Shown here: positions 31,001 to 61,264 of the stretch, piece by piece
Numbering within the stretch: position 1 is the first letter of the stretch
How the letters are laid out: each line of letters opens with the position of its first letter
Assembly (NCBI RefSeq): GCF_963921235.1
Contig: NC_086107.1
Location: forward strand, 94,056,001-94,120,000
Reading direction: 5' to 3'
Origin: Mobula hypostoma
Taxonomy: Eukaryota
Length of the DNA stretch: 64,000 bases
Made by a program: the position numbers and the translations under genes
The notes under the pieces: generated by a model
What the model was told of the DNA's origin: nothing
What the model saw: only the letters and a program-made list of their open reading frames with translations
Databases searched by the model: none

Positions 31001-34000
31001 GTCAATCCAAGGCAGAGGCTCAAACCAGAATGTTTACAAACCAGGTTCCTTCACTTGCAGCTCAAATTTCTCCTTGGCAGTGCCCAACACCGCCATGTAG
31101 ACCGAGTCATCCTGTTTGTTCAGGTCGTTGATGACCAGCGTGTGCTTCTTGCCCTCGACCTTGATGGTGTACTTGGGGCCGGCTACGAGGTCCTTCCCGC
31201 CCTTCTGCCATTTCACCTTCACGTTGGGCTTGTCCACCTCGGCCACAAACTCCGCTTTCCCTCCGGGTGCCCCCGTCTGGCTCTGGGGCTTCTTAGTGAA
31301 GCCAGCTGGTTGGGGGGAGAAGGAAAAGTCAGAAGTCTCACCAGTGTGGGAAGCGACGGAGAGGAGGCGTGAGCGGGAAGAGAGCAAAGCAAGACAGCAG
31401 CATCATATACTAAAGGTGAACCCTTGATCTCGCAATCTAGCTGCATTTCAGCTGTAACACGACACACAGTGGCCACTTTATTAGGTACAGGAGTGGAATC
31501 CAGTTGGTCTGTTGGTGCTGTAGCCTATTCACTGCAAGCTTCAACATGTTATGCATTCAGAGATACTCTTCTGCACACTGCAGTTGTAACACATCGTTAC
31601 CGTTAGCTTCTTGACAGCTTGAACCAGTCTGGCCATTCTACTCTGACCTCTCTCATTAACAAGGCATTTTCGCCCACAGAACCACCACTCACTGGATGCT
31701 TTTTGTTTATTGCACCATTCTCTGTAAACCCTAGAGACTGTTGTGCATAAAAATCTCAGAAGATCAGCAGTTTCTGAGATACTCAAACCACCCCATCTGG
31801 CACCAACATTCATTCCACAGTCAAAGTCACTTAGACTAAATTTCTTCCCCACTCTGATGTTTGGTCTGAGCAACAACTGAACCTCTTGACCATGTCTGCA
31901 TGCTTTAATGCATTGAGTTTTTCCACATGATTAGCCAATTAGATACGAGGGGTGATTGATAAGTTTGTGGCCTAAGTTAGAAAGAGTCAATTTTAGAAAA
32001 CCTAGCGCATTTATTTTTCAACATAGTCCCCTCCTACATGTACACACTTAGTCCAGCGGTCGTGGAGCATACGATCCCTTCTTTGTAGAAGTGGTCCACA
32101 GCAGGGGTGATTGATAAGTTTGTGGCCTAAGGTAGAAGAAGATGAGTTATTAAATTCAAACTTTCTGCATTATCACTCAAAGAGTTGAACTGCATGTGCA
32201 TGGGGCAAGAGCGTCTTGGACCTCCAGGTGGTCCACGGCAGGGGTGGTTGATAAGTTCGTGGCCTAAGGTAGAAGGAGATGAGTTATACAGCTCTCGTTA
32301 CATACACGTGCAGTTCAACTCTGAGTGAAAATAGAAAGTCTGAAGTTTCTCCTCATCTGCTTCTACTTTAGGCCATGAACTCATCAATCACCCCTGCTGT
32401 GGACCACTTCTGGAGGTCCAAGACGCCGACTTCTACAAAGAAGGGATCCGTATGCTCCACGACCGCTGGACTAAGTGTGTAAATGTAGGAAAAATAAATG
32501 TGCCAGGTTTTCTAAAATTGACTCCTTTTACCTTAGGCCATGAACTTATCAATCACCCCTCGTACTTGCATTAACGATCAGCTGTACAGATGTATCTAAT
32601 AAAGTGAGTGAGTGTAGTATTCTCTGTAGTTTTCCAATGACCTGCTTTGATGAACTGACGAGTGGAATGATCTGCCTTGGTGACAGACGAACAAAAGCTT
32701 TTCACTGCGTCTTGGTGTAAGTCACATTGTAAACTAATTCCAATTCTAATTCCAAATCTTTTCTATCTAATCCCAGGGAATGATACACGCAGACGATACA
32801 AAGACAGGTGGAGGGGCACTACTGGGGAAGCAGGGAATCAGCAGAAGGATTTGGTCAGATTCGGAGAATGCAGTCTCACCCCTCGCTCTCGTCTCCCTAC
32901 CCTCCTTTGCCTCCCTATCTCTCTGCTCTCTACACCCTCCCTCTCTGCTCCATATTCTCTCTTTTTCGTCCTGAATTTTGCACTCTCTCCCTCTCTTCCC
33001 TCCCTCCTTCTCTCCCCTTCTGTCTTCTTTCCCTACCCTTTCACCGTCTCCCTTACCTCTCACCACCCATCCCCTCTCCTCCCCTTCCTCCTTCACTCTC
33101 TCACTTTCTCTCCCCACCCCCTCTCCCGGCACTCCCTCTCTCCTCCATCCTCACTCTCTCCCCCCGTTTCCTTCTCCCTTTCTCCTCCCCGCCCTCCCCT
33201 CACCTCTAAATTTCACCCACTCCACACCTTCCCTCTCTCCTCCATCCTCACTCTGACCCTACTTCCTTCTCCCTCGCTCTCTCTTCTCCCCATCCTCCTT
33301 CTCCTTCACTCTTCCCTCTCTCCTCCACCCTCCTTCTCCTTCCCCTTTCACTCCCTTCCTCTCCTCTCCCCATCCACCCTCTCCTTCCCCAGTCCTCTTC
33401 TCATTAGGAGGGAGGAGAAGATGGCGGCGCGACGCAGCGCGCACGGCCACTTCGGTGGTAATGTCCGTTATCTGTCAAGTAGGGGACTGTGCACAATTCT
33501 GATTTGATGGAGACGGACGTGAGAGTACGGAGGAACATCTGGAAAACTTCTGAAATGCCCGCTTTGCTGCCGCTGCTACTGTGTGGTAACCGGAATCTCC
33601 AGAGCAGAAGGCCCCGAAATCCTCGGCTTTGCGTGTTTCAGCGGCTGGGGCGCGCTCGAAGGCGCTCGGCAGAGGATGGCGCTTGGGAGGCTATATCGGA
33701 GAGGCTGGTTGGAAGCTCGAAGTTTTCGGACGGACGGACTCAGTGTCGGCTGTGGTCAGTTGCTTCCAAGGCATCGGCAAGTTAACGGTGCCTGGAGGTT
33801 TATGGTAGGGAGTTTCTCCCTTTTGCCGCCTGCTATCGGGGACTCGGGAGTCAATCGACTCGGGGACTTTTGAGACTTTATCTACCATGCCCGTGGTTTG
33901 TTCTTCATCAAATTATGGCATTGCTTTGCACTGCTGTAACTATGTGTTATAATTATGTGGTTCTGTCAGTGTTAGTCTTTGGTCTGTCCTGTTTTCTGTG

Positions 34001-37000
34001 ATATCACTCTGGAGAAACATTGTATCATTTCTTAATGCATGTATGCATTTCTAAATAATAAGAGAGGACTGAGTGTTCTCATAATCTAATCTAAAGTATC
34101 ACGCTCTCCCTCTCCCACCCTCTCTCTCACATTCCCCTTTAATTCTTTCCCTCCCCTCCCTCTAACCCCTCCTCCTCCTCTCACTCTCTCCCTTTCTCTT
34201 CCTCTGCTCTCTCCGCCCCCTCATTCTCCCTCCCCTCTCCCTCTAGAGTCACCTCGTGCCCAGGTCAGTTTCAGCCATCACTGAGGATATATTGCTGTGA
34301 CCCAGACGAGGATCAGAAATGGAGTCCGGCTGTCAACTGTGAGCTATCGAGGAGCGAGAACCTATGATTTACGTTCCCTGGTGGATTCTATCTGCAAAGT
34401 GCGTCCTTACTTCAGGCACAGATCTCCATCAACCAAAGGGCAGAGCCAAGTAAAGAACAGATGGCAGCAATCTGGGTACAGTACGTGATTGTTTTTCACT
34501 CTGTCTACCCAGAGCACGGGACAGCAGCAACAACTTGTTAGTGGCTAATGGCTCTCCTCCCTGGCCAGGAATTTCGCCGCTAACGGTACCTCCTGGGATA
34601 AATGCTGTCTCAAGCAGAGAGAAATTTGAGTCCCAAACACAAAATACCCTGAAGTTCTGTCTCGCTCTGATCCAAGCCAAACAGAATCAATAAACACAAG
34701 AGATTTCTGTGGGTGCTGGAAATCTGGAGAAACACGCACAAAATGCTGGGAGAACTCGGCAGGTCAGGCAGCATCCATGGAGAGAAATAAACAGTTGACG
34801 TTTTGGGCTGAGACCCTTCATCAGGATTAGCCTCAGCTCGAAATGTCTATTGTCTATTCCAGCCCATAGATACTGCCTGACTGCTGCGTTGCTCCAGCAG
34901 TTTTTGTGTGATGCTCTAGGTTTGCTGTGTCTGCACAATCTCTCATGTTAAACCCGTGCCCTCTAGTTTTGGACACCTCTACCCTGGGCAAAGACTGTGA
35001 TCATTCACCCTTCTGAGTTTATAACCAGTCTGTAAGGTCACCCCTCACAGTTCTTTGTTTTGGGGAAACTGCCCCAGCCTTTCCAAGTCAAATTGACTTC
35101 TAAAGATTCCTGGAGTAACTGGGTCATACAACACAGAAACAGGCCATTCAGCCCATTGAACCTGTGCTGACCATCAGACATCCATTTACACTAATCCATT
35201 TTATTCTCCCCCATTCCAATCAAATCACCCCAATTCCACCCTTCGCCCATGCACTAGGGGCAATTTACCGACTGGTATCAGATTAGTTTTATTTGTCACA
35301 TGTACGTCGAACATACAGTGAAATGCAACGTTAGCATCACATTAAATCAGCGAGGATGGTGCTGGGCCACGTTTCAACGTAACATGCCTGAAAATTTACG
35401 AACCTGAAACGTGCATCTTTGGAACGTGGGAGGAAGCCCACGCAGTCACAGGGAGAGCGTGCGAACACCACACGGACAGTGCCTGAGCTCAGGATCAAAT
35501 CCAGATCTTTGGATTCTGTAAGGAAGCTGCTCTGCCCCCTTGTGGTGGTGGTTCAGATGTTCAGCTGCTGGGCGAGTGACTCTGAGCCTGCCCGAACCAA
35601 GGTTCGCATCCCAACATGGCCGATTTGATATTTAATTTTTTTTTTAAGTCTAACAAACCAGTCATCAAAAACGATTACCTCAATGCCGAGTAGGCTTTGT
35701 TGTAAAAACCCACCCCGTTCCCTCATGATCTTCAATGGAGAGATCTGCTGTTCTTCCCTGTGGGTCAGCCCACCCAGAGACATGAGCTTGTATCGTACCA
35801 CAGCTGATTGGGTATTTAGTATTTTCTTCAACAAACCAGCCATCAAATGGATGACCTCAACGTTTTTGGGATATAGGTGCACCCAGGGGAGCACACGCAG
35901 TCACGGGGAGAGTGTGCAAACGCCACATAGACAGTGCCTGAGGTCAGGATCGAACCTGAGTCTCTGGAGCTTTGAGGCAGTGGTTTTACCCACCACTCCA
36001 CTGATTCCAGATCTCCCTCAGGCAGTCCATCCTAGAAACCCTTTGCCTCTTGCACAGCACATCTCCAGGCCTGGCAGTCTGCCTCACGATCTGCAAACAG
36101 TTATTAAAAACCTTCAACAGCAGATTAGTTAAGTTGCAGAAAGGAAGTGTGGAAGTGGGAAGTCATTTGGAATAAGACATCTCCCGGTATCCAGTTAACA
36201 TTCTGGAAATTTCTGATCCAGATGGCAATGTGACTGAAGCAAACGATAGCCCTGTGGCCCATAAGGCTTTAATTATAGAACAAAGGCATGCAAAGTGCCT
36301 TATTAGTAGTCGAGGACCTTCCATGTACTCCATAATTAGGACTCTATCTGGGAAACACAAAGATCATAAAATAGATGGGGATCTTGTAAAAGAAAGGAAA
36401 TTTTTCCTACAACACACATAAAAATTGCTGGTGAACTCAGCAGGCCAGGCAGCATCTATAGGAAGAGGTACAGTCGATGTTTCGGGCCAATTTTTCCTAA
36501 ACACTTATGGAATGAACGTACTGGGTTCCAGAAATCTTGCCACGAAAGGATATCGACAGACCCGTACAAGCCCCAATTCCAACCATCACATCTGAACCCA
36601 TCACTTGGATTACCCCCCATAGTCGTGGGGTAATGCAGAGTGAAACAGGCCCTTCAGCCCAATGTTTGGCCCATAGCCTTCTAAACCTTTCCAGTCCATG
36701 CACATGTCCAGTTGTTAGTCTGTCTACCTTAACCACTTCAATCTGGTGGCTTATTCCACATAGGTACCACCCTCTTTGTGAAAAATTTGTCCCTCAAGTT
36801 CCTCTTGAGGGGCAACAATTGGCAGATCAAAAGAAAACTGTTCAACCCCTTTAACCTGTACCAAAATAGAATTTTAAAAATGGTTGATTCATGAACTAAA
36901 TCCACTTCTACCTGTCTTTTCTACATATCCCTTAATATCACCCAACGTGAGACACATAGCACCCAACTATATAACATTGGGAATGGGTTGGCTCTGGTTG

Positions 37001-40000
37001 GATGCATACTGCAGTGACTCCATGCTTAGTACTGTATTGGGGTGAAGAGGGCTTGTTTTGGATCCATTCTTCGTTGCCAAACAGATCAAAAACATGATTA
37101 AAATTGTTACCTTTACAGCAGAGGGCAAGTGCATGTCCACAGGCTCAGGTCTGCTATGATTGGCCGTTATTGGATGAGAATGGATTGGGATTGGCTGTCA
37201 ATGGGTGAGAATAGGTTGGGATTGGCCGTGGCTAAGCTTGATTGAATTGGGATTGGCCTTGCTTGGGTTAGATTGGATTGGGACTGGCCATGGTTGGGTT
37301 GGATTGAATTGGGATTGGTCCTGATTGGGTTGGATTGTATTGGGATTGGCCATGGTTGAGTTGGGACTGCTCATGGTATGGTTGGATTAGCTGTTATCAG
37401 GGTAGGGGTGGAATGGGTTAAATTGGGATTGGCTGATATTGGATCGGCTACAGATTGGTTAATGTCAGGACTGAGCTGGTTGCAGACTGGCCAAATTTGT
37501 TGTCAGACCTTAATTCTATTCCAAGTGGGCCTCTATCCCTTAATACTTCCATCAACATCAGGTTCGCAATTAACTGTTGACCATTCGTGGAAGAGAGTAC
37601 TTAACGTCTACCAACCTGGTTATAGTGGATACGTGGTTTCCATCTGCACTCCTGAAGGACTGGCTCTATTAATTAGAATTTTTTATTTATTTATCTATTC
37701 ATCAGTCTTTCTACCTACCTACCTATTATTTATTGAGATCTAGCGTGGAATAGGCCCTTCCAGCCTTTTGAGCCACACCCCGCCCCCAACAATCCCCCAT
37801 AATCGTAGCATAATCACAGGACAATTTACAGTTAACCTACCAACCGGTACGTCTTCAGAATATGGGAGGAAACCGGAGCACCTGGGGAAACCCATGTGAT
37901 CACAGAGAGAATGTACAAAACCCCTTGTAGGCAGTGGCAGGAAAAAGAACGCTGGTCACCTGTACTGTAAGGCATTGTGCTAACCATTATGTTACCATGC
38001 CGTAATTTCTAGTCCAGGCTCAATAACCAGTATAAATTGCTTCTCTCTGTCTATCTTGTCAGCTCTACTTCATATCCTGAGGGTTTCAAACAAATTTCAT
38101 GGATATGAGAAGTTTAAAGGGATATAAAAAATGATAGAAAAATGGAGGGCTATGTGGGAGGGAAGGTTTAGATTGATCCTAGAGTAAGTCAAAAGGTAGG
38201 GCAACATGGGCCAACGGGCCTACGCTGTTTTGTGATGTTCTACGTCCTACATCGCAAATGCAGGCCAGTGGGACTAGCTCAGGAAGGCAGCTGGTTGGCA
38301 TGGACAAGAAGTGTCGCAGGGTCCAACTGTATCCATGCTATATAACTCTCCGACAAATCATTCCTTATCCACCAGACCCCAGGGAATGCTACCCCCGGTT
38401 GTTAAACCTCTTGAAGTTTAAATTTGGGATCAAGGTATCATTTCTGGAAAAAAATGTGAACTACTCTGTCTGGAATCGAAGTATCCACAGCAAATGAAGT
38501 TTGCTTCAGCAGTACAGTGTAATACATTTAAAAAAACTATAAATTACAGTAGAAGTATATTCATTTAAAATAAGTCATGCAAAAAGAGAGCAAAAGTAAT
38601 GAGGTCATGTTCGTTAGTTGGTTCGTTGTCCATTCAGAAATCTGACCGGGGAGGGGGAGAAGTCGATCCTAAAACGTTGAGTGTGTGGCTTCAGGCTCCT
38701 GTAGCTCCTCCCTGATGGTAGTGATGAGAAGAGGGCATGTCCTGGGTGGTGGGGGTCCTTAAGTACGGTTGCAAAAGTTAGATTTATTCATCACACACAA
38801 TACTGTGCAAACGTCTTAGGGTGCCTAAGACTTTTGCACAGTACTGTAGTAAATTTATGTATTGCTCTGTACTGCTGCCACAAAAAACAAAATTTCATGG
38901 CATATGTGAGTGATGATAAACCTGATTCTGATTTGGGTCTCTGTCGTGGACTGAGAGTGGAAAGGGGGCAGGGAGAGGGGAATTATGATTGGGAAAAGAG
39001 GGAAGGGAGAGGGGAGGGAGTGGGAAGCACCAGAAAGACATTCTGTAATGATCAATAAACCAATTGTTCAGAATCAAATAACCTTGCCTGATGTCTCTGG
39101 GCTGGGTTTGTCTGCACTTGTGCCACACCCCGCCCCGGCACTCCTTCTCTGCCACCTGTCCCACACCCCTCCCGTGATGCTCCACCCTCACCACTCCCAG
39201 TATCCTTTGCTCCCGCCAGATTTACAAGCACGCTGTCTACTCCACATTGACAAATACAGTACCGTGCAAAGGTCTTAGTCACATAAGCTAGGTTGCTTAA
39301 GACTCTTCTACAGTACTGTACATATCGAAACACAGATTGAAATGTGTCTAGCCATAGCTTGGTGAGAGTGATTGAGAAAGACTTGGAAGGTGCTATGAAG
39401 CCTTTAGATTGAGTATCTAATCTTTCCTTCTATATTTCACATCCAGGTTAGGATTTGTTTACACATCCCGAGCTAACCTTGCAAAGTAAGGACACCTCAG
39501 AGAATGTTGAAATGTTGCCCACTCTGGCAGGGCTGGTACCACATCCTGGACACACCAGGGAGGGACGGTAGATCTCCTCCACTGAAGATCATGGGAAAAT
39601 GGGATGGGGTTTTAACAAGGAAACCTACTTGGTGTTGAGGTCACTGTTTTTGATGACAGTTTTGTTCGAGATAAAAAAAAGTTAAATACATCAGCCATTG
39701 TGGGGCGTTAACTCGGGTCACTGGATTGTTTGGGCAAGCTCGGAGTCACTCACCCAGCAACTTATCATCTGCTCTGCCACCACACCACGACCTGAGCAAC
39801 TTCCTCAAAGCTCCAGTGACCCAGCTTCAAACCTAACCTTAGATGCTGTCTGTGTGGAGTTTGCATGCTCTCGCCAAAACTCCATGTGCTTCCTTGGGCT
39901 ACACACATTTCCTTCCATGGACTGTGCGTAGGTATAATGTGGGGAGAGGTGATGAGAACAGGCCGATGGGGGGGTGGAAGTGAATGAAACAGGATTAGTG

Positions 40001-42754
40001 TTGATAGGAGTAGGTGAATGGAGTAGGTTAGGGTTAGGGTTAGGGTTAGGGTTCACCTACTCCTATCAACACTAATCCTGTTTCATTCACTTCCACCCCC
40101 CCATCGGCCTGTTCTCATCACCTCTCCCCACATTATACCTACGCACAGTCCATGGAAGGAAATGTGTGTAGCCCAGGGAAGCACATGGAGTTTTGGCGAG
40201 AGCATGCAAACTCCACACAGATACTCACTCAATGGGTCGAAGGGCCTGATTCCCAGCTGTATAATTTTATAAAACCACTCCAATGTGCATGAGGTGACAG
40301 AGATTCTTCAGAAACCCGTCCAGTGTGAAGTATTACACGTCACGTCACACCTAAACACGTAATTTTCCTAACTCCCGTCAGTCTGACATTCCCTGGCCTG
40401 GAATATCCAACAAGAGATCAAGGAATTCTTTGTGCACAATACTCAGAACAGGACCACCAAGAGATTCTGCAGATGCTGAGAGCAAGAAACACAAGATGCT
40501 GGAGGAACTCAGTGAGTCAGGCAGCATCTATGGAGAGGAATAAGCTGTCAATGTTCTGGGCTGAGACCCTTCCTCAGGACTGGAAAGGAAGGAGGAAGAC
40601 ACCAGAATACAATGGTGGGGGGAAGGGAAGGAATATCAGCTGGCAGGTGAAAGGTGAGACCAGGTGAGGGGAAGGTGGGTGGGTGGGGGAAGGGGGTATG
40701 AAGTAAGAAGCTGGGGGGTGATAAGTAGAAAAGGCAAAGGGCTAAAGAAGAGATCTGATAGGAATGTGAACCCCGGGAGAAGGGGAAGGAGGAGGGGCAC
40801 AGAGGGAGGTTGAAGGGGTGAACAGGGAGCCAGACTGCAGATTGATGAAAGAAAGAGCTGGGGGAGAAATTACTGGAAGTTAAAGAAATCGATGTTCGTG
40901 CTATCAGGTTGCGACCCAGATGGAATACGAGGTTCTGCTCCTCCTTGCTGAGTGTGGCCTCATCGTGGTAGTAGAGGAGCCCCCCGACTGACATGTCGGA
41001 ATGGGAATGAGGAGTAGAATTAAGATGGTTGGCCTCCGGGAAGTCCTGCCTATTGCAGACACTGCAAAGAAGCTTGACAATACTTCCTCCATTCCACATC
41101 AAATATCAGAGAGTAGGGGGGACAGCACCAGGAGCACCGGATAGAGCAGGTGACCCCGGCGGTATATTGCCACTGTGTTAATAACAGCAGCACTCTCACT
41201 GGGTGTACCATGAAGTCCCCTGATGAGGGCTTTGCCAGTGTCCTAGGCCGCGGACCGGTACCAGGCCGCGAGGGAACGATATGAGTCAGCTGCACCTTTC
41301 CTCATTCCCTGTCACGCACTGTTGAACTTGAATATAAGGTTGCCAACTGTCCCGTATTAGCCGGAACATCCCGTATATTGGGCTCAATTGGTCTGTCCCA
41401 TACGGGACCGCCCTTGTCCCGTATTTCCCCCGCTAAGGTAGAGCGTTCCTATGAAACCTTTCGTGCCCAAATGGCGTGAAGCGAAGAAGCAATTACCATT
41501 AATTTATATGGGAAAAATTTTTGAGCGTTCCCAGACCCAAAAAATAACCTACCAAATCATACCAAATAACACATAAAACCGAAAATAAATAACACTAACA
41601 TATAGTGAAAGCCGCAATGATATGATAAATACACAGCCTATATAAAGTAGAAATAATGTATGTACAGTCTAGTCAGGAAGATGAAGGCAAAATCGATTTG
41701 TTGGGGGAAAATATCGGCACGTACGCGCATGTGCACATTACATGCGCACGTACACCCACGCGCACACAGGTGCCCACGCAAGGCTTCATGGTCATGTAGT
41801 CTTTCTTGGGGTAAACACAAGTGTCCCGGGATTTGACTGCTACTTTTGTCCCTTATTTGGGAGTGAGAAAGTTGGCAACCCTAACTGTAAAAGACATGTT
41901 GAGGTGAGTTTAACCCTACTTGGACATCACCCTGCCACCCCCTGGTTGGCCAGTCCGCAAGAATATTGTCAATATTAAACCGGTCCACGGTGCAAAAAAG
42001 GTTGGGGACCCCTGTCCTAGGTTGCTACACTGCTAACTACTGAGGGAGGTGCACCACTAACAGAAAGGGCATCTGTATCCCTACAGTAGTCTTAATGGAT
42101 AACGGAATGCCAATACAGCACCAGCGGCCCAAGATCAATTCCCACAGCCGTCTGTAAGGAGTTTGTATGCTTTCCCTGTGACCGTGTCGGTTTCCTCCGG
42201 GTGCTCCTGTTACCTCCCACATTCCAAAGGCGTTAGTAAGTTGCAGGCATGCTATTTTGATGCGAAACTTGCAGGCTGCCCCCAGAACAACCTCAGACTG
42301 TGTTGGTTGTTGACAATACATTTCATCATATGTTTTGATGTTCCAAGGTTCATGTAACAAACAGGCTAATCTTTTCACCTTTAGAAATAAAGATAAACTT
42401 AGACATATAAATAGAACAACGCGACCAACGGCAACGACCATCTAACAATTCACGAAACTACCTCTTTTATTTCTTTCAAGTATGTTTCTACTAGGATTGG
42501 AACCTGTGATTTACATTTTGATGGGCCGATTGAACAATGTGACACTCTGCTGCCCCTGAGGGAGTTCGGTGAGGTTTGGAGTGGATTGCAAGGCACCAAG
42601 GACCCTGGAGACGAGGTGCGAGCCGGTCATCAACTCCACTTCTCGCCGATCACACGGATTAAAGTTTCAAGCAAGATTGAAATCAACAAAGAAAGGCGAG
42701 TAGGCATTCAGTGCCTTTGTGTGTGTGTGTCTGTCTGTCTGTCTGTCTCTCTCC

Positions 42755-42789
<35 letters not shown>

Positions 42790-43107
42790 AAAAATTTAAA
42801 GGCATCCATTAGTCTTACGAGACCATGGATCTGCGCCTGGAAAATCTTCACTCTCCAGGGCGCAGGCCTGGGCAAGGTTGTATGGAAGACCGGTAGTTGC
42901 CCATGCTGCAAGTCTCCCCTCTCCACGCCACTGATGTTGTCCAAGGGAAGGGCATTAGGACCCATACAGCTTGGCACCGGTGTCGTCGCAGAGCAATGTG
43001 TGGTTAAGTGCCTTGCTCAAGGAAACAACACACTGCCTCGGCTGGGGCTCGAACTCACGACCTTCAGGTCACGAGTCCAATGCCTTAACCACTTGGCCAC
43101 GTGCCCC

Positions 43108-43170
<63 letters not shown>

Positions 43171-43451
43171 GTATATGGTGGTGGCAACCCCGTCATCCGT
43201 TAGTCTCGCGAGACCATGGATCTGCGCCTGGAAAGTCTTGCTTCAGTCTGTGTTGGTAGAGCAGCGTCTGTTGTGGCTGTAGAGGCCCACACGGGAGTGA
43301 CAGTCTCGGCTGCAGCGACTGCACTTGAAGGCGCTGTCCTCCATTGTTGTCTTGGTGCTGTTTTTCCGACGAGTGCGCTTTTCTTCAGCAGCAAGTCTCA
43401 GCTTCTCTTCTCCTCTTTTTAGACCTCTGCGTAGTTCCAGTCTCCAGTGTA

Positions 43452-43485
<34 letters not shown>

Positions 43486-46400
43486 TCAGTGCTGCCAGAG
43501 TCTTAGGTTTTGGGCAAGGTTTATGGACCGGACTCATTTTTCGAGGACTCCACATCTCCTGTTATATGTGTTTCTGGTTACTCTCCTTTTTATTGCTACC
43601 CTGCACCATTTTGATCGGGCTGGGCTGGCTCTGTGGCTCTGTGGCTCTGCACAGGCTCTGCTTCAAGGACTCAGTGGTTTGAGGGTAGAGGCAAGCAGAG
43701 GAGGATGGGAGAGAGGCAGAGGAGGAGACAGAAGGGGAGAGAAAAAGAGAGGCAGAGGCGAAAAGGGAAAGACTGGGCAGCAGGGAGGTGGGCACAGAAA
43801 CAGAGACCGAGAGAAAGCGGTCGGCAGAAAGATGAGCAAAGAGAAGCAGAAAGTTTACTTGCACAGGGAGAGACAAGAAAAGCCACCCTTGAGACTGTCA
43901 GAGGAACGTGGAGAGGGGCAGCCAAAAACTGTGACCTGTGTCTAAGGTCACGGCAAGGCAGGTGTAGAGGGAGAGGAGCTGTGTGCTTGAACTGTCCATG
44001 TAACGGAGAAAGGCATAACAGATGGGAATTTAGATGTTGAACATGCTATTCATGGTGCAGAGTTTTGTCCTGAATCTTGTTCGTTGGTCTATTTGCCAAG
44101 GACCGAGCAGATTGTGGTCACCACTGCTGGTCTGCTGGATGAAGTACACCAGGTAGTCTGGCAGGTATGGTATCTGTGGTCACTCCTTTTAGGGAAAAGC
44201 AGAGTCTGCTTGCACTCCCCTCTCCCCACCACCCCCCCCCCACGCCACCCCCCCGTTGGACTCAAGCCTGCTCAATAAGATGAAATGAGACCCTGCCGAA
44301 ATCTGCAACCACCCCTCAGCCAGGAAACCTAACACGCCAGCACACGGGTTTCGAAATAGTTGGGAGGCTGTTTTAAGACACCTTCCACACCAGGCGTTAT
44401 TTTCAGCCAGCTCCTTCTGATATCTTGCTGCCCGTGTTAACCCCTTGGTGGGGAGGCTGGGGGAGAGGGGAGCAGGGTTTTGGATCCCCGGACTAAAATT
44501 GGAGAACCGAGGCATTTCCTTCCGACACAGGGCTGATCGGTTTTCTCTGGTACTTGACGCACAGGGCTGGGTCATAAAGTCACAGACCATTCGGCCCATC
44601 TAGATTGTGCTGAACTATTAATGTGCCCAGGCTAGGGTTAATAAAAAAGGGGGCAACCTGCTGAACTATGCATTAGAAATAAGTGCATTTTCCCTCCCCC
44701 TCCCTCTTCTATTCTCTGGCCTCTTACCTCTTCTCAACTGCCTGTCACCTCCTCCTTCCCTTTCTCTTGTGGTCCACTTTCCTCTCCTATCAGATTCTTT
44801 CCTCTCCAGCCCTTTACTCTTCCAACTCACCTGGCTTCACCTGTCACCTTCCCGCTATCCTCCTTCCTCCCACCCACCCCCCACCTTTTTATTCTGTCGT
44901 CTTCCTTCTTCCTTTCCCTGTCCTGGAGAAGGGTCTCGGGCCAAAACATCAACTGTTTATGCAGTTCCATAGATGCTGCCTGGCCTGCTGAGCTCCTCCA
45001 GCATTTTGTGTGTGTGCTGCTGACTCTCCACCCTATCTGGGTCTCCCGTCATCTTAACAGGAGAACCTCCATCAGGTCTCCTGTCAGCCCAACACTCCAG
45101 GGAAGACAACCCAAGTTTGTCCAACCGCTCCTTACAGCACATGCTCTCTAGACTAGGCAGCATCCTAGTGAATCCCTTCTGCACAGCCGCCCCCCCCGTC
45201 CCATCCTTCCTGTAACGGGCGACCAGAACTACGTGTAACTACTGAAACACAGAAAAACACAGCAGCCAATTTGTACATGGTGAAGTATGAGCACACACTG
45301 GGCCAGTGATACTGTGAATACTGGCAAGGATCCCAAGGTTACCCTGTTCACCTACGTAGTGTCATGGGATCAGTATGTGGGACTGAGAAAGCTATTAGGA
45401 GGATTGAAAGGTCACGCCATAAATGGTAAAAGTTCAACAAGAAGTGGGAAGATGAAATAACTTTTTATAGCCAGTCGCTAAGATGTGGCATGTTGCATTC
45501 CACGTGGCTGGTGAAATGATATTGGGCATATACTGTATGTGACCAAAAATTTCCCTTCTACAGTAAGAGGCAAACTCAAAGACATCCAGGTCCGTGGTTG
45601 GGATAACCACAGCAAAGGCCAAAGATAAGCCTGAGAGCAAGGTGCGTCATGACGACCGCAAAAAGGCACCAACCCACATCTAAATTCAAAGTAATTTTGT
45701 TATCAGCCCATGTATATGTCACCATATACCACCCTGGGGTTCATTCAGGACATTCACAGTAGAACAGAGAACTACAATAGAATTAGTGAAAAACACTGAT
45801 AAACAACCAAAGTGCAAAAGAAATCAGATAGTGCAAATAGAAAAAAAATGTACATAAATAGATAGATAGATAGGTTGCTAGGTAGGTAGGTGGATAGATT
45901 GATTGATAAGTGGTGGAAGGGTAGATAGGTAGGTATATAGGTAGGTAGGGAGACAGACAGATAGATACTGTATACAGATAAGGACAGATGGGCAGATTGA
46001 TACTACTGAGAACAGAGTCCTTGAAAGTGAGTCCATAGACTGTGGGCATCCTCGGCTCCAGAAACTCCCTGGTGATGTCACTCATTGGCACGAGTTTCCT
46101 AGCGAGCTTGCAAAACCTTTCCCGCTGCATTGTTAACACGGTTGAGTTGAAACATACCTCGGAGGGGAACAGGGAGGTCATATTAGGGAACCGTCTGGTG
46201 GTGGGGGATTCAGAATTCCAGTTTCTGTATCACACACATACATCGAAACACACAGTAAGATGTGTCACTTGCATTAACAACCAACACGCCCACGCTACGC
46301 TGCTGGGGGCAGCCCGCAGTTGTCGCCACGCCTTCCGGGGCTCATGTGGCAAGAAGTCCTGTGACCTACAAAGAGGGTCGACTGGGTCTCAGTTATTCAT

Positions 46401-48467
46401 TATACAAGACCATAGATCACAGCAGTGGTCACATCTCATAAAAGCAGCCTACTGGTGGCAAAGGTCCTTGGGTCTGAGGTTACGGAAAGCCTGTGGTACT
46501 TGAGGATGGGTTCGATTCCTGAAAGTACTGATATTATCTTTCCCCTTTTCAGAACCGCTGGGCACCATCACATTACTCAGCAGCTCTGTCTGAGCACCTT
46601 CACTCCTTATAGAAGGGGAATTAGTCATGGCCAAGGCTGATACTTAATACCTCAACCTGACAGTTTTGTGCCTCATCAGCAATTGGGGACAAGAATAAAC
46701 TCGGGTCCCACAGCGTAAACTTTAACTTTAAAAGAAAAGTTCTCTCTGCTCAATCCTCACAACGTTCCCTTTTGAGTTCTGGAATGGCTCCTTAGCACAA
46801 CAAGGTGGAACATTGACCTCACAAAGTGCCTCGTTGTGACCTTGCACCCTTATTGTTTGCCTGCTCTGCACTTTCTCCACAGCTGTTACACTTTATTCTG
46901 CATTGTCATTGTTTGACCTTGTACGACCTCAATGCAACCTTTGTAATGAATTGATCTGTATGGATAGTACACTCAGTGACCTCTTAATCATGTATGCCCC
47001 GTTCCACGGAGAGCATGTTCATGGTCTTCTGCTGCTGTCACCCATCCACTTCAAGGTTCAACTTGTTGTACATTCAGAGATGGCTTTCTGCACGCCACCA
47101 TTACTATCGCCTTCCTGCCAGCTTGAACCAGGCTGGCCTTTCTCCTCTGACCTCTCTCATCACAAAACTGCTTCTTACTGGATTTTTTTTCTCTGTTTTT
47201 CACACCACTCTGTAAACGTTAGGGACTGCAGTGCACGAAAATCCCAGGAGATCGGCAGTTTATGAGATACTCAAACCACCCCGTCTGGCACCAACAATCA
47301 CTCCACGGTCAAAGTCGCTCAGATCAAATTTCTTCCCCATTCTGATGTTTGGTCTGAACAACAACTGAACCTCTTGACCATGAGTGCATGCTTTAATGCA
47401 TTGAGTTGCTGCCACATGATTGGCTAATGAAATATTTGCATTAACGAGCAGGTGTACAGGTGTAAGAGGCCACTGTGTGTATATGGATGGTACAAGACAA
47501 GTTTTCCACTGTCCCTTGGTATATGAGACAACAATAAACCAATTTACCAATTTCACCATCAGATTAACACAAAAAAAATCTGGAATTATATTCTTACTTA
47601 GAAATCTTCCTAACTTGCTGATGAAGGGTTTCAACCCAAAATGTCAACTGTTTATTCTTCTCTATAGATGCTGTTTGACTTCCCAATTTCCTCCAGCATT
47701 TTGTGTTTGTTGCTCAGGATTTCCAGCACCTGCAGAATTCCTTGACCCCTTGTTTTCTTACACAGGACAGACCAGCATCAAATACTAACGCAACACAGAA
47801 ATTATCTTGCAGCCAGGTTTATGAGATGGGGCAGTGCAAAGGGGCACTGCGTGAAAATCAAGGTACTCGCAGATGCTGGAAACTCGAAGTAAAATCAGGT
47901 AATGTAAGAAACACTCAGCAGGTCAGGCAGCATATGTGGAGAAATTCAACTGTTCAGGTTGAAGACCATATTTTAGGGCTGGGCACAACAGAGGGAGAGA
48001 AAGAAAACTGTTCCTTTCTCTCTCAGTTCTGATCGGGAACATGAACTGTTTCTGTCTCCAGAGCATTTGCAAGGGAACCGCTTTCCCAAACAGCGCCGAT
48101 TCTGCCGGGTCATTTCCACCCCCCACCAATATTCACCCCTCTGAAAACTCTCCAGTGGATCTCCTTCCAGTCAAAAAGGCGACGCCAAACGCGCCCTCCA
48201 CCCATTCGCGCTCCCAATGCAGTCTACAATCTCACCCCTCGCTTCTCTGCTGAATCCAAGTGCTTTGAGTTTAAAACGGGCAAAAGGCATCCTCGAGTAA
48301 TTTTGCTTTCCCGCTACAAAAAAAAACGAACTTGCATCGCCCAAAAAATGTTTAATTTGTGAGTGTAAATCAGAGTTCATGGGAGATAAACTGATCCTTT
48401 GGTCTGCGGCGGTTAATGTGAAGGAGGGAGGCTGCGAGTCCCTACCTGGTTTCTTCGGCTCCGGCAT
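914..48467 (-). CDS. Myosin-binding protein C family gene, 5' part (C0, PA linker, C1, M-domain); 10 coding exons, continues beyond window start; paralog unresolved (MYBPC3-like architecture)
   Basis: join(48446-48467,31042-31305,30928-30954,27494-27526,16989-17066,8782-8930,6040-6157,4663-4705,1796-1852,914-1083) gives an open frame [17 protein letters not shown]...KWFKGKW...YRCEV...[11 protein letters not shown]...[21 protein letters not shown]. All introns are GT-AG with matching phases, and the motifs are diagnostic of MyBP-C. Confidence 0.95.
1122..1315. repeat. CT-rich low-complexity tract
   Basis: Nearly pure pyrimidine on + strand. Confidence 0.9.
1796..1852 (-). CDS. MyBP-C exon, M-domain ([19 protein letters not shown])
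   Basis: cacttgcag|GGGAGAG ... AAGAAAAG|gtaggt; 57 nt, phase 2-2. Confidence 0.93.
2503..2538 (+). ncRNA. Minimal type-I hammerhead-like motif in a Penelope-derived repeat
   Basis: aatc CTGATGA agg-gtctcgg-ctt GAAA CGTC gacc; core intact, stem I partly degenerate. Confidence 0.55.
4663..4705 (-). CDS. MyBP-C exon, M-domain start ([15 protein letters not shown])
   Basis: ctctccacag|TTGCAG ... AAACGGAC|gtgagt; 43 nt, phase 1-2; matches the LLSAFRRT / LESFKRT motif. Confidence 0.9.
6040..6157 (-). CDS. MyBP-C exon, C1 second half
   Basis: ctctccgcag|GTCTAC ... GTTGAAG|gtaaga; 118 nt; [39 protein letters not shown]. Confidence 0.95.
6443..7540 (-). mobile_element. CR1 LINE 3' end, interrupted by a younger repeat at about 6700-7320
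   Basis: (acatagaa) tail repeats at 6444-6460, then typical CR1 3' sequence on the minus strand that resumes at 7321. Confidence 0.7.
6700..7320 (+). mobile_element. ~620-690 bp non-autonomous retroelement family, copy 1
   Basis: Starts gggaggagaagatgg and ends cataatctaa; similar along its length to 11640-12298 and 33408-34094. Confidence 0.7.
7600..8045 (+). mobile_element. Rex1/L2-type LINE 3' fragment
   Basis: ORF 7604 [48 protein letters not shown] is the C-terminal motif of fish non-LTR RT proteins. Confidence 0.75.
8782..8930 (-). CDS. MyBP-C exon, C1 first half
   Basis: ttgacag|GTGAAGCC ... GCAAAG|gtgagg; 149 nt; [36 protein letters not shown]... Confidence 0.95.
9170..9870 (+). 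mobile_element. CR1 LINE 3' fragment
   Basis: [40 protein letters not shown]-terminus with stops; ends in ctctatgactctat tail. Confidence 0.85.
10255..10742. mobile_element. Tc1-type composite MITE, copy 1
   Basis: CAGTACTGT/AAAAGTCTTAGGCAC-type termini and an internal sequence shared with the copies at 16103, 21920, 38800 and 62367. Confidence 0.7.
11640..12298 (+). mobile_element. Non-autonomous retroelement family, copy 2, with (ATCTA)n tail
   Basis: Similar to 6700-7320; ends aatctaatctaatctaatctaatctaatc. Confidence 0.7.
12613..12690. mobile_element. ~78-bp hAT MITE
   Basis: TIRs caggtgttcccaac / gttaggaacacctg; 8-bp flanks ctctactg / ctccactg. Confidence 0.75.
14108..14857 (-). mobile_element. 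PIF/Harbinger deletion derivative
   Basis: 18-bp TIRs AGGTTGATTCATACTTGT / ACAAGTATAAATCAGCCT (2 mismatches); TTA on both flanks; transposase remnant [35 protein letters not shown]. Confidence 0.85.
15185..15540 (-). mobile_element. Well-preserved CR1 LINE 3' end
   Basis: (CATAGAAA)n tail; ORF ...[36 protein letters not shown]. Confidence 0.85.
16103..16650. mobile_element. Tc1-type composite MITE, copy 2
   Basis: Same termini and body as 21920-22464. Confidence 0.7.
16989..17066 (-). CDS. MyBP-C exon, linker end and C1 start ([26 protein letters not shown])
   Basis: ttgttctttacag|ATACGG ... ATTGCTG|gtgagt; 78 nt; GLFxxKP strand-A motif of C1. Confidence 0.9.
18030..19490. mobile_element. 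Cluster of tRNA-derived SINEs, a CR1 fragment and a small hAT MITE (~18878-18952)
   Basis: Repeated ggttcaattccc...ggagtttgtacgttctccccgtgac...gggtttcctcc...cccacattcc SINE core. Confidence 0.65.
19508..19900 (-). promoter_or_regulatory. Candidate internal promoter / alternative first exon
   Basis: Non-repeat island. The minus strand reads cagcgtaaaATGG|gtaaga (ATG at 19517-19515). E-box CAGTTG 19549-19554, CATTTAAATG 19574-19583, octamer ATGCAAAT 19598-19605. Confidence 0.4.
21920..22464. mobile_element. Tc1-type composite MITE, best-preserved copy
   Basis: TA|CAGTACTGTGCAAAAGTCTTAG ... CTAAGACTTTTGCACAGTACTG|TA; each end is itself a small palindrome (21920-21986, 22367-22464). Confidence 0.85.
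23331..24031 (+). mobile_element. 5'-truncated RTE-clade LINE with TSD
   Basis: ORF 23532-23978 [37 protein letters not shown]; (GAC)n tail; 11-bp direct repeat ACACTAGTTAA at 23320-23330 and 24032-24042. Confidence 0.9.
26065..26470 (+). mobile_element. Probable RTE (Expander/Rex3-like) 5'-region derivative inserted in a CR1 fragment
   Basis: Interrupts a CR1 fragment (ggagtaccggagactga / acggagactgaggagagacctg). Sequence style resembles RTE 5'UTRs (from memory, not searched). Confidence 0.4.
26884..27003. repeat. 21-bp minisatellite (CACCAGGCACATGCCAGCCAW), about 5 copies
   Basis: Direct reading. Confidence 0.9.
27494..27526 (-). CDS. MyBP-C 33-nt micro-exon, linker ([11 protein letters not shown])
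   Basis: cctttgttttaaag|CTGCAGAAGAGTCCACTGAACTCCCTGAAGATG|gtaagc; phase 1-1; lies in non-repeat sequence. Confidence 0.7.
27750..28325 (+). mobile_element. Penelope-like element 3' end (GIY-YIG C-terminus + terminal repeat)
   Basis: [28 protein letters not shown]...LRLEEQ...[22 protein letters not shown]...GAAA motif at 28251-28274. Confidence 0.8.
30474..30551. mobile_element. 78-bp hAT MITE
   Basis: TIRs ctggggttcccaac / gttgggaaccccgg; perfect 8-bp TSD GTCTAGAG (30466-30473, 30552-30559). Confidence 0.85.
30928..30954 (-). CDS. MyBP-C 27-nt micro-exon, Pro/Ala linker (AKTKPVAAP)
   Basis: tgtttttccattgcag|CGAAGACCAAGCCTGTAGCAGCCCCTG|gtaaga; phase 1-1; 87-nt intron after exon 2. Confidence 0.8.
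31042..31305 (-). CDS. MyBP-C exon 2, C0 Ig domain
   Basis: ccaaccag|CTGGCTTCACTAAG ... GAACCTG|gtttgt; 264 nt; [40 protein letters not shown]...HTLVINDL...KFELQVKEP, colinear with the cardiac C0 domain. Confidence 0.93.
31463..32616 (-). mobile_element. Tc1-like non-autonomous element (transposase N-terminal remnant)
   Basis: TIR cagtggccactttattaggtaca / tgtatctaataaagtg; ORF 31541-31876 [38 protein letters not shown]. Confidence 0.85.
31946..32562. mobile_element. Mariner-type MITE nested in the Tc1 element
   Basis: TA|CGAGGGGTGATTGATAAGTT ... AACTTATCAATCACCCCTCG|TA; long subterminal inverted arms. Confidence 0.9.
32875..34245. repeat. Polypyrimidine low-complexity tract split by a retroelement
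   Basis: C/T-only stretches at 32875-33403 and 34100-34245. Confidence 0.85.
33408..34094 (+). mobile_element. Non-autonomous retroelement family, copy 3
   Basis: gggaggagaagatggcggcgcgacgcagcg ... ataatctaatctaa. Confidence 0.7.
34700..34945. mobile_element. Palindromic mini-element built from two inverted Penelope terminal repeats
   Basis: tgctggaaatct..gcaggtcaggcagcatc..gacgttttgggctgagacccttcatcagga, then the inverted copy ..ctcgaaatgtc..atagatactgcctgac..ctccagca. Confidence 0.65.
37155..37395. repeat. Degenerate ~30-bp tandem repeat rich in GATTGG
   Basis: gggattggcc/gggactggcc-like units recur with ~30-nt period. Confidence 0.75.
38800..39320. mobile_element. Tc1-type composite MITE, copy 4 (reverse orientation)
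   Basis: Reverse complement of the 21920-22464 body; palindromic ends. Confidence 0.75.
39849..40221. repeat. 170-bp inverted repeat with a 33-bp loop containing (TTAGGG)4
   Basis: Arms 39849-40018 and 40052-40221, one mismatch found by eye; TTAGGG x4 at 40028-40051. Confidence 0.95.
40460..41160 (-). mobile_element. Penelope-like element 3' end
   Basis: ORF 40548-41102 [52 protein letters not shown]; terminal repeat with a degenerate hammerhead motif at ~40545-40581. Confidence 0.8.
41335..41883. mobile_element. hAT (Blackjack-type) MITE nested in a Charlie-type hAT element (~41248-42014)
   Basis: TIRs TAAGGTTGCCAAC / GTTGGCAACCCTA; host right end ccggtccacggtgcaaaaaaggttggggacccctg. Confidence 0.7.
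42800..43105 (+). mobile_element. Short RTE-associated/SINE-like repeat
   Basis: ggcatccattagtcttacgagaccatggatctgcgcctgg...ccttaaccacttggccac. Near-identical inverted copy at 62876-63140; fragments at 20745-20812, 24660-24780 and 43195-43237. Confidence 0.65.
43111..43162. repeat. (CA)n microsatellite
   Basis: Direct reading. Confidence 0.95.
43240..43445 (-). mobile_element. RTE LINE 3' fragment
   Basis: [52 protein letters not shown]-terminal zinc-finger-like motif. Confidence 0.8.
44680..45020 (+). mobile_element. Penelope-like terminal repeat
   Basis: Same pyrimidine-rich body and ...gaagggtctcgggccaaaacatcaac...atagatgctgcctggcctgctgag end as 27950-28325. Confidence 0.7.
46968..47480 (-). 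mobile_element. Tc1-like non-autonomous element, copy 2
   Basis: [33 protein letters not shown]; tacactcagtgacc / ggccactgtgtgta ends. Confidence 0.8.
48446..48467 (-). CDS. MyBP-C exon 1 (MPEPKKP, phase 1)
   Basis: ATG CCG GAG CCG AAG AAA CCA G|gtaggg. Resembles the MPEPGKKP first exon of cardiac MyBP-C and lies in a GC-rich unique segment. Confidence 0.85.
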
Positions 48468-58989: not shown

Positions 58990-59097
58990 CTAAAAACTCA
59001 AACACGAGGAATTCTGCAGATGCTGGAAATTCAAGCAACACACATCAAAGTTGCTGGTGAACGCAACAGGCCAGGCAGCATCTCTAGGAAGAGGTAC

Positions 59098-59133
59098 AGT
59101 CGACGTTTCAGGCCGAGACCCTTCGTCAGGACT
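59098..59133 (-). ncRNA. Minimal type-I hammerhead ribozyme motif (intact core)
   Basis: Minus strand AGUC CUGACGA AGG-GUCUCGG-CCU GAA ACGU C/ GACU: stem I AGUC:GACU, stem II AGG:CCU, palindromic ACGU stem III, GUC triplet. Confidence 0.8.
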
Positions 59134-60058
59134 AACTGAAGGAAGAGCTAGTAAGAGATTTAAAAGTGGGAGGGGGAGGGGGAGATCCAAAATGATAGGA
59201 GAAGACAGGAGGGGGAGGGATGGAGCCAAGAGCTGGACAGGTGATTGGCAGAAGGGATATGAGAGGATCATGGGACAGGAGGTCCGGGAAGAAAGACAAG
59301 GGGGGGGGAACCCAGAGGATGGGCAAGGGGTATAGTCAGAGGGACAGAGGGAGAAAAAGGAGAGAAATAGAAAGAATGTGAGTATATAATGAATAAATAA
59401 CAGATGGGGTACGAGGGGGAGGTGGGGCACTAGCGGAAGTTAGAGAAGTCAATGTTCATGCCATCAGGTTGGAAGCTACCCAGATGGAATATAAGGTGTT
59501 GTTCCTCCAACCTGCGTGTGGCTTCATCTTTACAGTAGAGGAATTAAAATGTGAACACCTATGCTCTGTCCGCCAGAGAAAGCAGGATCTCCCAGTGGCC
59601 ACACATTTTAATTCCACATCCCATTCCCATTCTGACATGTCTATCCACGGCCTCTTCTACTGTAAAGATGAAGCCACACTCAAGTTGGAGGAACAACACC
59701 TTATATTCCATCTGGGTAGCCTCCAACCTGATGGCATGAACATTGACTTCTCTAACTTCCGTAAATGCCCCTCCTCCCCCTCGTACCCCATCCGTTATTT
59801 ATTTATATACACACTTTCTTTTTCTCTCTCCTTTTTCCCCCTCTGTCCCTCTGACTATACCCCTTGCCCATCCTCTGGGCTTCCCCCCCCCCTTTTCCTT
59901 CTCCCTGGGCCTCCTGTCCCATGATCCTCTCATATCCCTTCTGCCAATCACCTGTCCAGCTCTTGGCTCCATCCCTCCCCCTCCTGTCTTCTCCTATCAT
60001 TTTGGATCTCCCCCTCCCCCTCCCACTTTCAAATCTCTTACTAGCTCTTCTTTCAGTT

Positions 60059-60094
60059 TGTCCTGATGAAGGATCTTGGCCCGAAACATCGACT
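60059..60094 (+). ncRNA. Minimal type-I hammerhead motif, variant copy
   Basis: tgtc CTGATGA agg-atcttgg-ccc GAAA CATC gact; stem III palindrome broken. Confidence 0.55.
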
Positions 60095-60449
60095 CTACCT
60101 CTTCCTAGAGATGCTGCCTGGCCTGCTGTGTTCACCAGCAACTTTGATGTGTGTTGCCCACATTTCCATTATGTATTTTCCTAAGAACATGGGTTCCCGG
60201 TTTACCTACCTAGTACTATCAAAGGTTCAATTTAATGTCAGAGAAATGTATACAATATACATCCTGAAATGGTTTTTCTTCGCAAAATGCATCATGATTT
60301 CTTCACATCATGATTTTCCCTGATTAAATACTTCCCCATACTGTCTGCTCCTATCCCTGTCCAATGGCTGCCCTAAAGCTCAGGGACTGTAGTCACTGTC
60401 TCCAAAATGCTCACCCACTGAGAGATCTGATATCTGACCTGGTTCAACG

Positions 60450-61070: not shown

Positions 61071-61264
61071 TATTATTATTAGTGGTAGTAGTAGTAATAG
61101 TAGAAGTAGTATTAATAGTAGTTGTAGTGGTAGTAGTAATAGTAGCAATAGTAGTGGTAATAATAGTAGTAGTAATAGTAGCAACAGTAGTGGTAGTAGT
61201 GGTAATAATAGTAGTAGTAGTAGTAATAGTAGTAGTAGTAGTAGTAGTAATAGTAGTAGTAGTA
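61071..61264. repeat. Imperfect (AGT/AAT)n trinucleotide repeat
   Basis: Direct reading. Confidence 0.95.

What the first reader, a model, noticed from the sequence alone, without database searches (positions are those of the whole stretch)
39849..40221. Near-perfect 170-bp palindrome with a telomere seed (TTAGGG)4 in its loop
Seen: an old, diverged SINE segment (39849-40018) is duplicated in inverted orientation (40052-40221) with one mismatch, so the event is much younger than the SINE. The 33-nt spacer is TGGAGTAGG followed by exactly four TTAGGG. The repeats start after TAGG and run into the TT that begins the right arm, giving microhomology at both junctions. SINE-like 3' sequence resumes after 40221. 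Bases 40030-40051 are AGGG(TTAGGG)3, the canonical telomeric G-quadruplex 22-mer. Established: short interstitial telomeric repeats arise at repaired double-strand breaks. Inference: a germline break was extended by telomerase and then resolved by fold-back or template-switch synthesis. The result is a cruciform-prone site with a G4/i-motif loop and a 170-bp dsRNA stem in the pre-mRNA.
Basis: partly seen in the sequence, partly recalled or inferred. Interest (0 to 1): 0.7.

Follow-up and report, generated by a model that had tools for sequence, protein, structure and literature searches.

The report
Telomere-repeat repair scar with fold-back copy
Inside a heart-muscle gene intron, four telomere repeats and a mirror-image copy of the neighbouring 170 bases were inserted recently, and two related species lack them; this is a neat but known kind of scar left when a broken chromosome is repaired.

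Summary
It lies in intron 1 of a MYBPC3-like gene on the minus strand. Single contigs from 2 of 3 related organisms laid bridge an empty site, with 16 letters where the window has 205 (the third is broken there). Telomeric repeats plus inverted arm are therefore a derived, lineage-specific insertion. Own-species contigs, possibly from the source sample, break where a real inverted duplication predicts. The arm starts inside a SINE, has no target-site duplication and is not multi-copy, so it is not a transposon. Best mechanism (0.55): telomerase extends the left broken end, the new 3' end folds back on 2 nt of microhomology, copies 170 nt and is end-joined. Capture of telomeric DNA or a two-step history remain open. 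Precedent: 3 of 66 horse interstitial telomeric loci carry inversions or inverted duplications, one including a SINE piece. Corrections: the pre-mRNA loop is C-rich, and a 33-nt spacer weakens the cruciform claim. The scan's earlier notes show no identical case, only loose analogues.

The parts
39790..39848 (+). 5' part of the old SINE copy, outside the duplicated arm (start approximate)
   Evidence: nhmmer hits to window paralogues begin at 39791-39806; alignment A1
39849..40018 (+). Left arm: the ancestral SINE-derived sequence, template of the copy; carries the derived T at 39894
   Evidence: Matched by orthologous contigs of organisms B and C up to 40017; C at 39894 in 3 of 3 relatives
40019..40027 (+). 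9-nt non-telomeric part of the loop, probably retained ancestral DNA up to the break
   Evidence: Sequence. Fits within the 16 letters that relatives hold here, but those letters were not shown: inferred
40028..40051 (+). (TTAGGG)4, G-strand pointing away from the left flank; in register 40026-40053
   Evidence: cannot fit in the 16-letter empty site together with the ancestral letters
40052..40221 (-). Right arm: new inverted copy of 39849-40018, starting with TT complementary to AA at 40017-40018; keeps the ancestral base at the mismatch
   Evidence: absent from bridging contigs of organisms B and C
40222..40222 (+). One T that neither continues the template (C expected) nor is matched by the relatives' contigs: likely non-templated base at the outer joint
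   Evidence: template continuation; relatives' alignments resume at 40223 in both bridging contigs
40223..40265 (+). Ancestral SINE 3' end resumes (end approximate)
31307..48445 (-). Host intron 1 (17.1 kb) of a MYBPC3-like gene, between the ATG exon (ATG at 48467) and the C0-domain exon
   Evidence: C0 match to cardiac MyBP-C residues 12-96; GT donor and AG acceptor in compatible phase; no transcript data

Best explanation
A one-off germline double-strand-break repair scar: a short interstitial telomeric sequence (ITS) inserted together with a local inverted duplication. Proposed order: (1) a break in the 3' part of an old SINE; (2) telomerase extends the left 3' end by about 24-26 nt, too little to become a telomere; (3) the new single-stranded end, finishing in TT, folds back over a 33-nt loop onto AA at 40017-40018 and a polymerase copies 170 nt of its own strand; (4) the copy is displaced and joined to the right end without homology, with one extra base and about 4-6 ancestral bases lost. 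Shown: the anatomy, the empty site, the net gain of 189 nt, which arm is new, and non-mobility. Inferred: telomerase, the order, and a single event. No function is proposed; it is most likely a tolerated intronic scar that forms a long RNA hairpin when the gene is transcribed. Confidence that it is a real, derived ITS-plus-inverted-duplication scar by some repair route is about 0.93; the figure below is for this route.
For: Empty site: organism B record 23 (one 1102-nt contig) matches 39249-40017 and 40223-40455, and organism C record 30 (1023 nt) matches 39298-40017 and 40223-40451; each has 16 letters between, against 205 in the window. These are two separate studies. Polarity: the G-strand runs away from the left flank, and the left flank is the part copied, as fold-back of the extended end requires (a 50% coincidence at one locus). 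The inner joint has 2 nt of inverted microhomology plus a G.T wobble; the outer joint shows none. That asymmetry matches yeast local foldback insertions, where one end is primed and the other ligated (41-nt loop, 10 to over 150 bp; PMC11724301, abstract and passages). Human fold-back junctions carry 2-8 bp of microhomology versus 134 of 1,000 simulated ones with 2 bp or more (PMC3907307, passages). A short telomerase product that fails to load shelterin is predicted to end as an interstitial insertion (bioRxiv 2022.10.31.514589, passage). Own-species contigs start at 39895 and at 40192, the two places predicted for k=31 by a real duplication with a real mismatch; the arm contig has depth 30.8 against 18.1 and 18.7 for the flanks.
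Against: Two nt of microhomology is weak: 19 such AA sites lie within 330 nt upstream. The priming end would be TT, not telomerase's usual pause at GGTTAG (recalled), so trimming is needed. The 16 ancestral letters were not shown, so in-register bases at the break are unverified. The loop itself was not read letter by letter in any run. The own-species contig over the outer joint has 30 letters on the arm side, one short of the tool's 31-letter rule for bridging, and that run may be the source sample. The third relative (organism E) gave no contig across the site. No TERC fragment is present to fingerprint telomerase. One locus cannot separate one event from two.
Confidence: 0.55

Rival explanations
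1. One repair event without telomerase: the telomeric 24-mer was captured or copied from telomeric DNA or from reverse-transcribed TERRA during template-switching repair (polymerase-theta or MMBIR type), and a further switch copied the left flank in reverse from the same strand or the sister chromatid.
For: TERRA-derived insertion is proposed as an alternative for ITS (PMC7215372 section 12). Inserted DNA at yeast breaks often comes from telomeric regions (PMC11724301 passages). No TERC fragment here. The single arm mismatch could reflect copying from another allele.
Against: Needs two template switches rather than one. Polarity and in-register GG fit telomerase. 60% of informative horse ITS have 2 or more in-register bases against at most 6.25% expected.
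Confidence: 0.2
2. Two separate events. Either the inverted duplication formed first as a tighter palindrome that broke at its tip and was patched with telomeric repeats, which lengthened the spacer and stabilised it; or the ITS came first and a later break or stall at it caused the fold-back.
For: Tight palindromes are cut at short loops and longer spacers are much more stable (PMC8053094 passages), so survivors would be enriched for patched tips. The empty site only dates both parts to after the split from organism B.
Against: The TT that ends the telomeric register is also the first two bases of the arm, which ties the two parts together (chance about 1 in 16). Two rare events at one spot within a short interval (arms differ at 1 of 170) are less parsimonious. 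No intermediate allele was seen, but only one own-species sample was laid.
Confidence: 0.17
3. Assembly or read artefact (fold-back chimera).
For: Palindromes are a known long-read artefact (recalled). The supporting run may be the source sample, its library type is not on record, and no listed contig spans the whole structure.
Against: The contig containing the outer joint has 0 differences and the same depth as the left flank (18.7 versus 18.1). The arm contig is 1.67 times deeper and begins exactly after the mismatch. The right arm keeps the ancestral base while the left arm has the derived one, which a chimeric copy of one molecule would not give. Sequence resumes in the correct orthologous flank.
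Confidence: 0.03
4. A mobile unit: a MITE, a SINE with a telomeric tail, or a Penelope-type inverted insertion.
For: The window has other inverted pairs from repeats, and a Penelope-like fragment (name recalled) starts about 240 nt to the right.
Against: The left arm is ancestral at this site, so only one arm is new. The arm starts about 50 nt inside the SINE. No target-site duplication of 3 nt or more was found. Depth over the arm's distal part (39914-39997) is 31-38 in the own-species run and 2-9 in relatives, against thousands over the SINE core.
Confidence: 0.02

Closest known systems
Short ITS with complex rearrangement, horse genome (Santagostino et al. 2020, PMC7215372, Fig. 4b-c and Table 5; read: abstract, sections 12 and 14, part 1 of figure legends and tables, passages; figures and supplement not seen)
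   Same: Short perfect telomeric tract absent from orthologous sites, small deletion, inverted duplication of flanking DNA. In Fig. 4c the duplicated piece includes part of an old SINE (Mir) and small random insertions. 3 of 66 loci are of this class.
   Different: Here a non-mammalian vertebrate (cartilaginous fish by recalled repeat families, not tested) and a simpler two-junction anatomy with the tract in the loop. The legends do not say whether the horse repeats sit between the arms, and no fold-back primed by the repeats is proposed in the parts read.
Local foldback inverted insertions at DSBs in yeast (Yu et al. 2024, PMC11724301; read: abstract and passages)
   Same: Break-adjacent DNA copied in reverse through a loop of a few tens of nt, then the copy is ligated to the other end; sizes up to over 150 bp.
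   Different: There the primer is a 10-bp native inverted microhomology and most copies are 5-34 bp; here the priming end is newly added telomeric repeat with 2 nt of pairing, and the product is a germline allele.
Human inverted duplications formed by fold-back (Hermetz et al. 2014, PMC3907307; read: passages)
   Same: Unduplicated spacer as fold-back loop, 2-8 bp inverted microhomology.
   Different: Spacers of 766-70,466 bp, large duplications with terminal deletion through a dicentric, and the telomere added at the far end. Here the spacer is 33 nt, the arm 170 nt, the chromosome is intact and the repeats are in the loop.
TERC-ITS of rodents and horse (Nergadze et al. 2007, PMC2246262; read: passages)
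   Same: Telomeric repeats inserted with extra templated sequence at a break.
   Different: The extra sequence there is reverse-transcribed telomerase RNA; here it is the local genomic flank.

Membership tests
Short ITS (Giulotto/Nergadze definition) | At least four telomeric repeats, at most one mismatch per unit, at a non-terminal site | tested here: met
   Four perfect units inside an intron; criterion from PMC7215372 section 14
Short ITS (Giulotto/Nergadze definition) | Orthologous empty site in related species | tested here: met
   Bridging contigs with 16 letters instead of 205 in 2 of 3 relatives laid; the third has no contig across the site
Short ITS (Giulotto/Nergadze definition) | [quoted passage not shown] | tested here: inconclusive
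   GG in register in the window, but the relatives' 16 letters were not displayed
Short ITS, complex-rearrangement subclass | End-joining-type changes at the site, including inverted duplication of the flank | tested here: met
   170-nt inverted copy, net gain 189 nt, probable 4-6 nt loss and 1 added base
Local foldback inversion at a DSB | Inverted microhomology at the priming junction with an unduplicated loop | tested here: met
   TT/AA plus one wobble, 33-nt loop; weak, at the lower end of the 2-8 bp range
Local foldback inversion at a DSB | Second junction formed by end-joining rather than continued templating | tested here: met
   Base 40222 is not the template continuation; both relatives' alignments resume at 40223 and do not extend into the arm
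Local foldback inversion at a DSB | Dependence on polymerase delta and NHEJ or alt-EJ; telomerase as the source of the repeats | not testable with these tools
   Needs genetics
TERC-ITS | Co-inserted fragment of telomerase RNA | tested here: not met
   The co-inserted 170 nt is a copy of the adjacent flank; no Rfam match in the window at gathering score; this species' TERC was not available for comparison with the 9-nt loop part
MITE or other mobile inverted-repeat element | Both arms inserted together, target-site duplication, many copies | tested here: not met
   Left arm ancestral, distal arm not high-copy at 85% likeness; no TSD
Large inv-dup-del (breakage-fusion-bridge type) | kb-scale spacer, large duplication, terminal deletion | tested here: not met
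   33-nt spacer, 170-nt arm, orthologous right flank retained

The most novel reading that the evidence does not exclude
This locus is one member of a recurrent germline repair route, telomerase-primed fold-back. An abortive neotelomere supplies the single-stranded 3' end that loops back and seeds an inverted duplication, so telomerase would be a source of new palindromes and long intronic dsRNA hairpins. Such loci would share a fixed signature: G-strand pointing toward the new arm, tract in register with the arm's first bases, blunt outer joint.
Probability: 0.2. Interest if true: 0.6.

Novelty: new member of a known kind. Interest (0 to 1): 0.3.

Why it matters
As a single locus it matters modestly. 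It is a clean, polarised example with an empty site that extends break-associated telomeric insertion with inverted duplication beyond the mammals covered in the papers read, and its two junctions suggest an order of events. If the signature recurs genome-wide with fixed polarity, it would be direct genomic evidence that telomerase, rather than captured telomeric DNA, makes these insertions, a question the ITS papers leave open. It would also show a route that creates palindromes in vertebrate germlines. No effect on the MYBPC3-like host gene is shown.

Tried and rejected
No whole genome is held, so the genome-wide search for inverted repeats with telomeric spacers could not be run; in the window there is one case. 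No RNA holder was listed: no information on expression or editing. Organism E gave only separate pieces (39811-39924, 40253-40437) and no cover across the site. I first guessed a 6-nt microhomology at the outer joint from paralogous SINE ends; rejected because both relatives' contigs resume at 40223 and do not extend into the arm. A 7-nt telomere-complementary word at 39832-39838, 10 nt outside the arm, was considered as an annealing site; the word is not enriched (12 found, 8.3 expected) and priming there would copy the wrong direction. Rfam found nothing in the window. Pfam gave no family for the two Penelope-like frames, so that name is recalled. Zygosity: the arm contig's depth (30.8) is nearer the homozygous prediction (33.1) than the heterozygous one (23.9), but the tool warns that contig depth is no copy number and that contigs do not show absence, so this is a hint only. 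Literature: one search for telomeric repeats + palindrome + foldback + telomere addition + spacer returned 0 papers; one for interstitial telomeric + shark/ray/chondrichthyes showed only cytogenetic titles among the 20 of 1,645 listed (listing only). These do not establish absence from print. The horse paper's supplementary PDF was listed but not read and may hold junction sequences that bear on precedent. Scan notes: none telomeric among 215 notes on this genome, none nearby or in relatives.
Full report
Observation. The structure is as described. Arms 39849-40018 and 40052-40221 are 170 nt with one mismatch, at 39894/40176, and the 33-nt spacer is 9 nt plus four perfect TTAGGG. The tract is in register from 40026 to 40053, is the only one in the window, and contains the 22-mer G-quadruplex motif at 40030-40051. 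Both strands fold into the full hairpin far beyond shuffles (z -41 and -46).

Setting. An exon at 31.03-31.31 kb on the minus strand matches residues 12-96, the C0 domain, of cardiac myosin-binding protein C. An ATG exon at 48467 with a GT donor at 48445 joins the acceptor ending at 31306 in phase. The site is therefore in a 17.1-kb first intron, assuming no unseen exon between, and the pre-mRNA is the minus strand, so its loop is (CCCUAA)4. The arm comes from an old SINE: homology to window paralogues starts at about 39791-39806, identity to 7 paralogues is 51-64% over the core columns, and the SINE-like 3' motif resumes after the right arm. The family name (V-SINE/HE1-like) and the host lineage (cartilaginous fish) are recalled from repeat content, not tested.

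Empty site. The run search listed 23 runs; I laid 4 on 39200-40455. Organism B record 23 is one contig matching 39249-40017 (16 differences) and 40223-40455 (2 differences, 1 gap) with 16 letters between. Organism C record 30 matches 39298-40017 and 40223-40451, also with 16 letters between. The window has 205, a net gain of 189. Organism E has no contig across the site. All three relatives have C at 39894, the state of the right arm, so the new copy keeps the ancestral base and the original has changed since, or another allele served as template. The 16 letters were not displayed, so the exact break and the loss (4-6 nt if the 9-nt loop part is ancestral) are inferred. A and B differ at 18 of 1,002 aligned bases (1.8%). 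A duplication as old as their split would give about 3 arm differences and 1 is seen, so the point estimate is a third of that age, with a wide interval (0.01-1.8, capped at 1 by the empty site). Conversion between the arms would bias this young.

Real or artefact. In the own-species run, which may be the source sample and so is not independent, contigs cover 39247-39866 (depth 18.1), 39895-40017 (depth 30.8, with 25 further letters not shown) and 40192-40455 (depth 18.7), all with 0 differences. A k=31 graph of the window predicts segment starts at 39895 and 40192 and about 1.8-fold depth for the arm record. The outer-joint contig has only 30 letters on the arm side, one short of the tool's bridging rule, and the loop was not read. 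Still, the joint is present at flank depth and the two arms differ in an evolutionarily sensible way, so an artefact is unlikely.

Not mobile. Only the right arm is new, the arm begins inside the SINE, there is no target-site duplication, and the distal arm is not high-copy: depth 31-38 in the own run and 2-9 in relatives, against 5,000-11,000 over the SINE core.

Mechanism. The G-strand points away from the left flank, and the left flank is what was copied, as expected if the extended left end folded back on itself. The inner joint has TT/AA plus a wobble. The outer joint has no homology and one base that is neither template continuation nor matched by relatives. Priming needs pairing and ligation does not, which favours fold-back from the telomeric end over synthesis from the right end. 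This is the geometry of yeast local foldback insertions (PMC11724301, abstract and passages), and 2 nt is within the 2-8 bp range of human fold-back junctions (PMC3907307, passages). A telomerase product too short for shelterin is expected to be end-joined as an interstitial insert (bioRxiv 2022.10.31.514589, passage). Against this: 2 nt is weak, with 19 candidate sites nearby; in-register ancestral bases are unverified; there is no TERC fragment; and one locus cannot exclude capture of telomeric DNA or TERRA cDNA (PMC7215372 section 12) or two successive events. I put 0.55 on this route, 0.2 on capture, 0.17 on two events and 0.05 on artefact or mobile element.

Consequences. A 170-bp RNA stem with one C.A mismatch is predicted in the intron but untested. 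The G-quadruplex motif is on the template DNA strand only. In yeast, 9-12 bp spacers cut break formation by about 80%, and strong fork arrest is placed at spacers under 9 bp (PMC8053094, passages), so a 33-nt spacer is more likely to hairpin in single-stranded DNA than to extrude as a cruciform. This fits its survival.

Known comparison. It meets the short-ITS definition and has an empty site. In horse, 3 of 66 informative ITS came with inversions or inverted duplications, and Fig. 4c describes a small deletion, an inverted duplication including part of a Mir SINE and small random insertions (PMC7215372, passages, legends and tables; figures and supplement not seen). It is not a TERC-ITS (PMC2246262, passages) and not a large inv-dup-del. 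PMC13065848 (passages) shows fold-back synthesis at dysfunctional telomeres in somatic cells, a looser parallel. A search for the exact combination returned no paper, which does not prove absence. Earlier scan notes hold no identical case; the nearest are a diatom repeat hairpin with a telomeric patch at its tip and a viral palindrome with a telomere-like centre, both unchecked.

Verdict. Real, derived and well explained as a repair scar: a new member of a known kind, interest 0.3.

Noticed in passing
window 59024-59542 / 59653-60168: Inverted pair at 92% identity with a 110-nt non-telomeric spacer, homologous to the fragment at 40457-41129; looks like a Penelope-type inverted insertion (name recalled; Pfam gave no hit).
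   Followed up: partly
window 40440-41100: Old Penelope-like fragment about 240 nt right of the palindrome; 20 matches listed in the window at E up to 1e-3, itself included; no sign that it took part in the event.
   Followed up: partly
window 31944-32564: 620-nt internally repetitive palindromic element with 90-98% identical sub-arms, MITE- or foldback-like, about 640 nt upstream of the C0 exon.
   Followed up: no
window 34720-34923: Head-to-head pair of the Penelope-like terminal repeat forming a 70% self-complementary hairpin.
   Followed up: no
window 21918-22466, 16131-16634, 38797-38847, 39242-39322: Very abundant small inverted-repeat family; summed contig depth above 60,000 at 39242-39283 in all four runs.
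   Followed up: no
window 39832-39838: 7-nt word complementary to the telomeric G-strand, 10 nt outside the arm's outer end; not enriched in the window.
   Followed up: yes
window 39921-39927: Organism C carries 19- and 7-nt extra stretches inside the arm region that the window and organism B lack, so the SINE copy was already changing by indels before the duplication.
   Followed up: no
window 61080-61264: About 62 copies of a degenerate TAG/TAA trinucleotide repeat.
   Followed up: no
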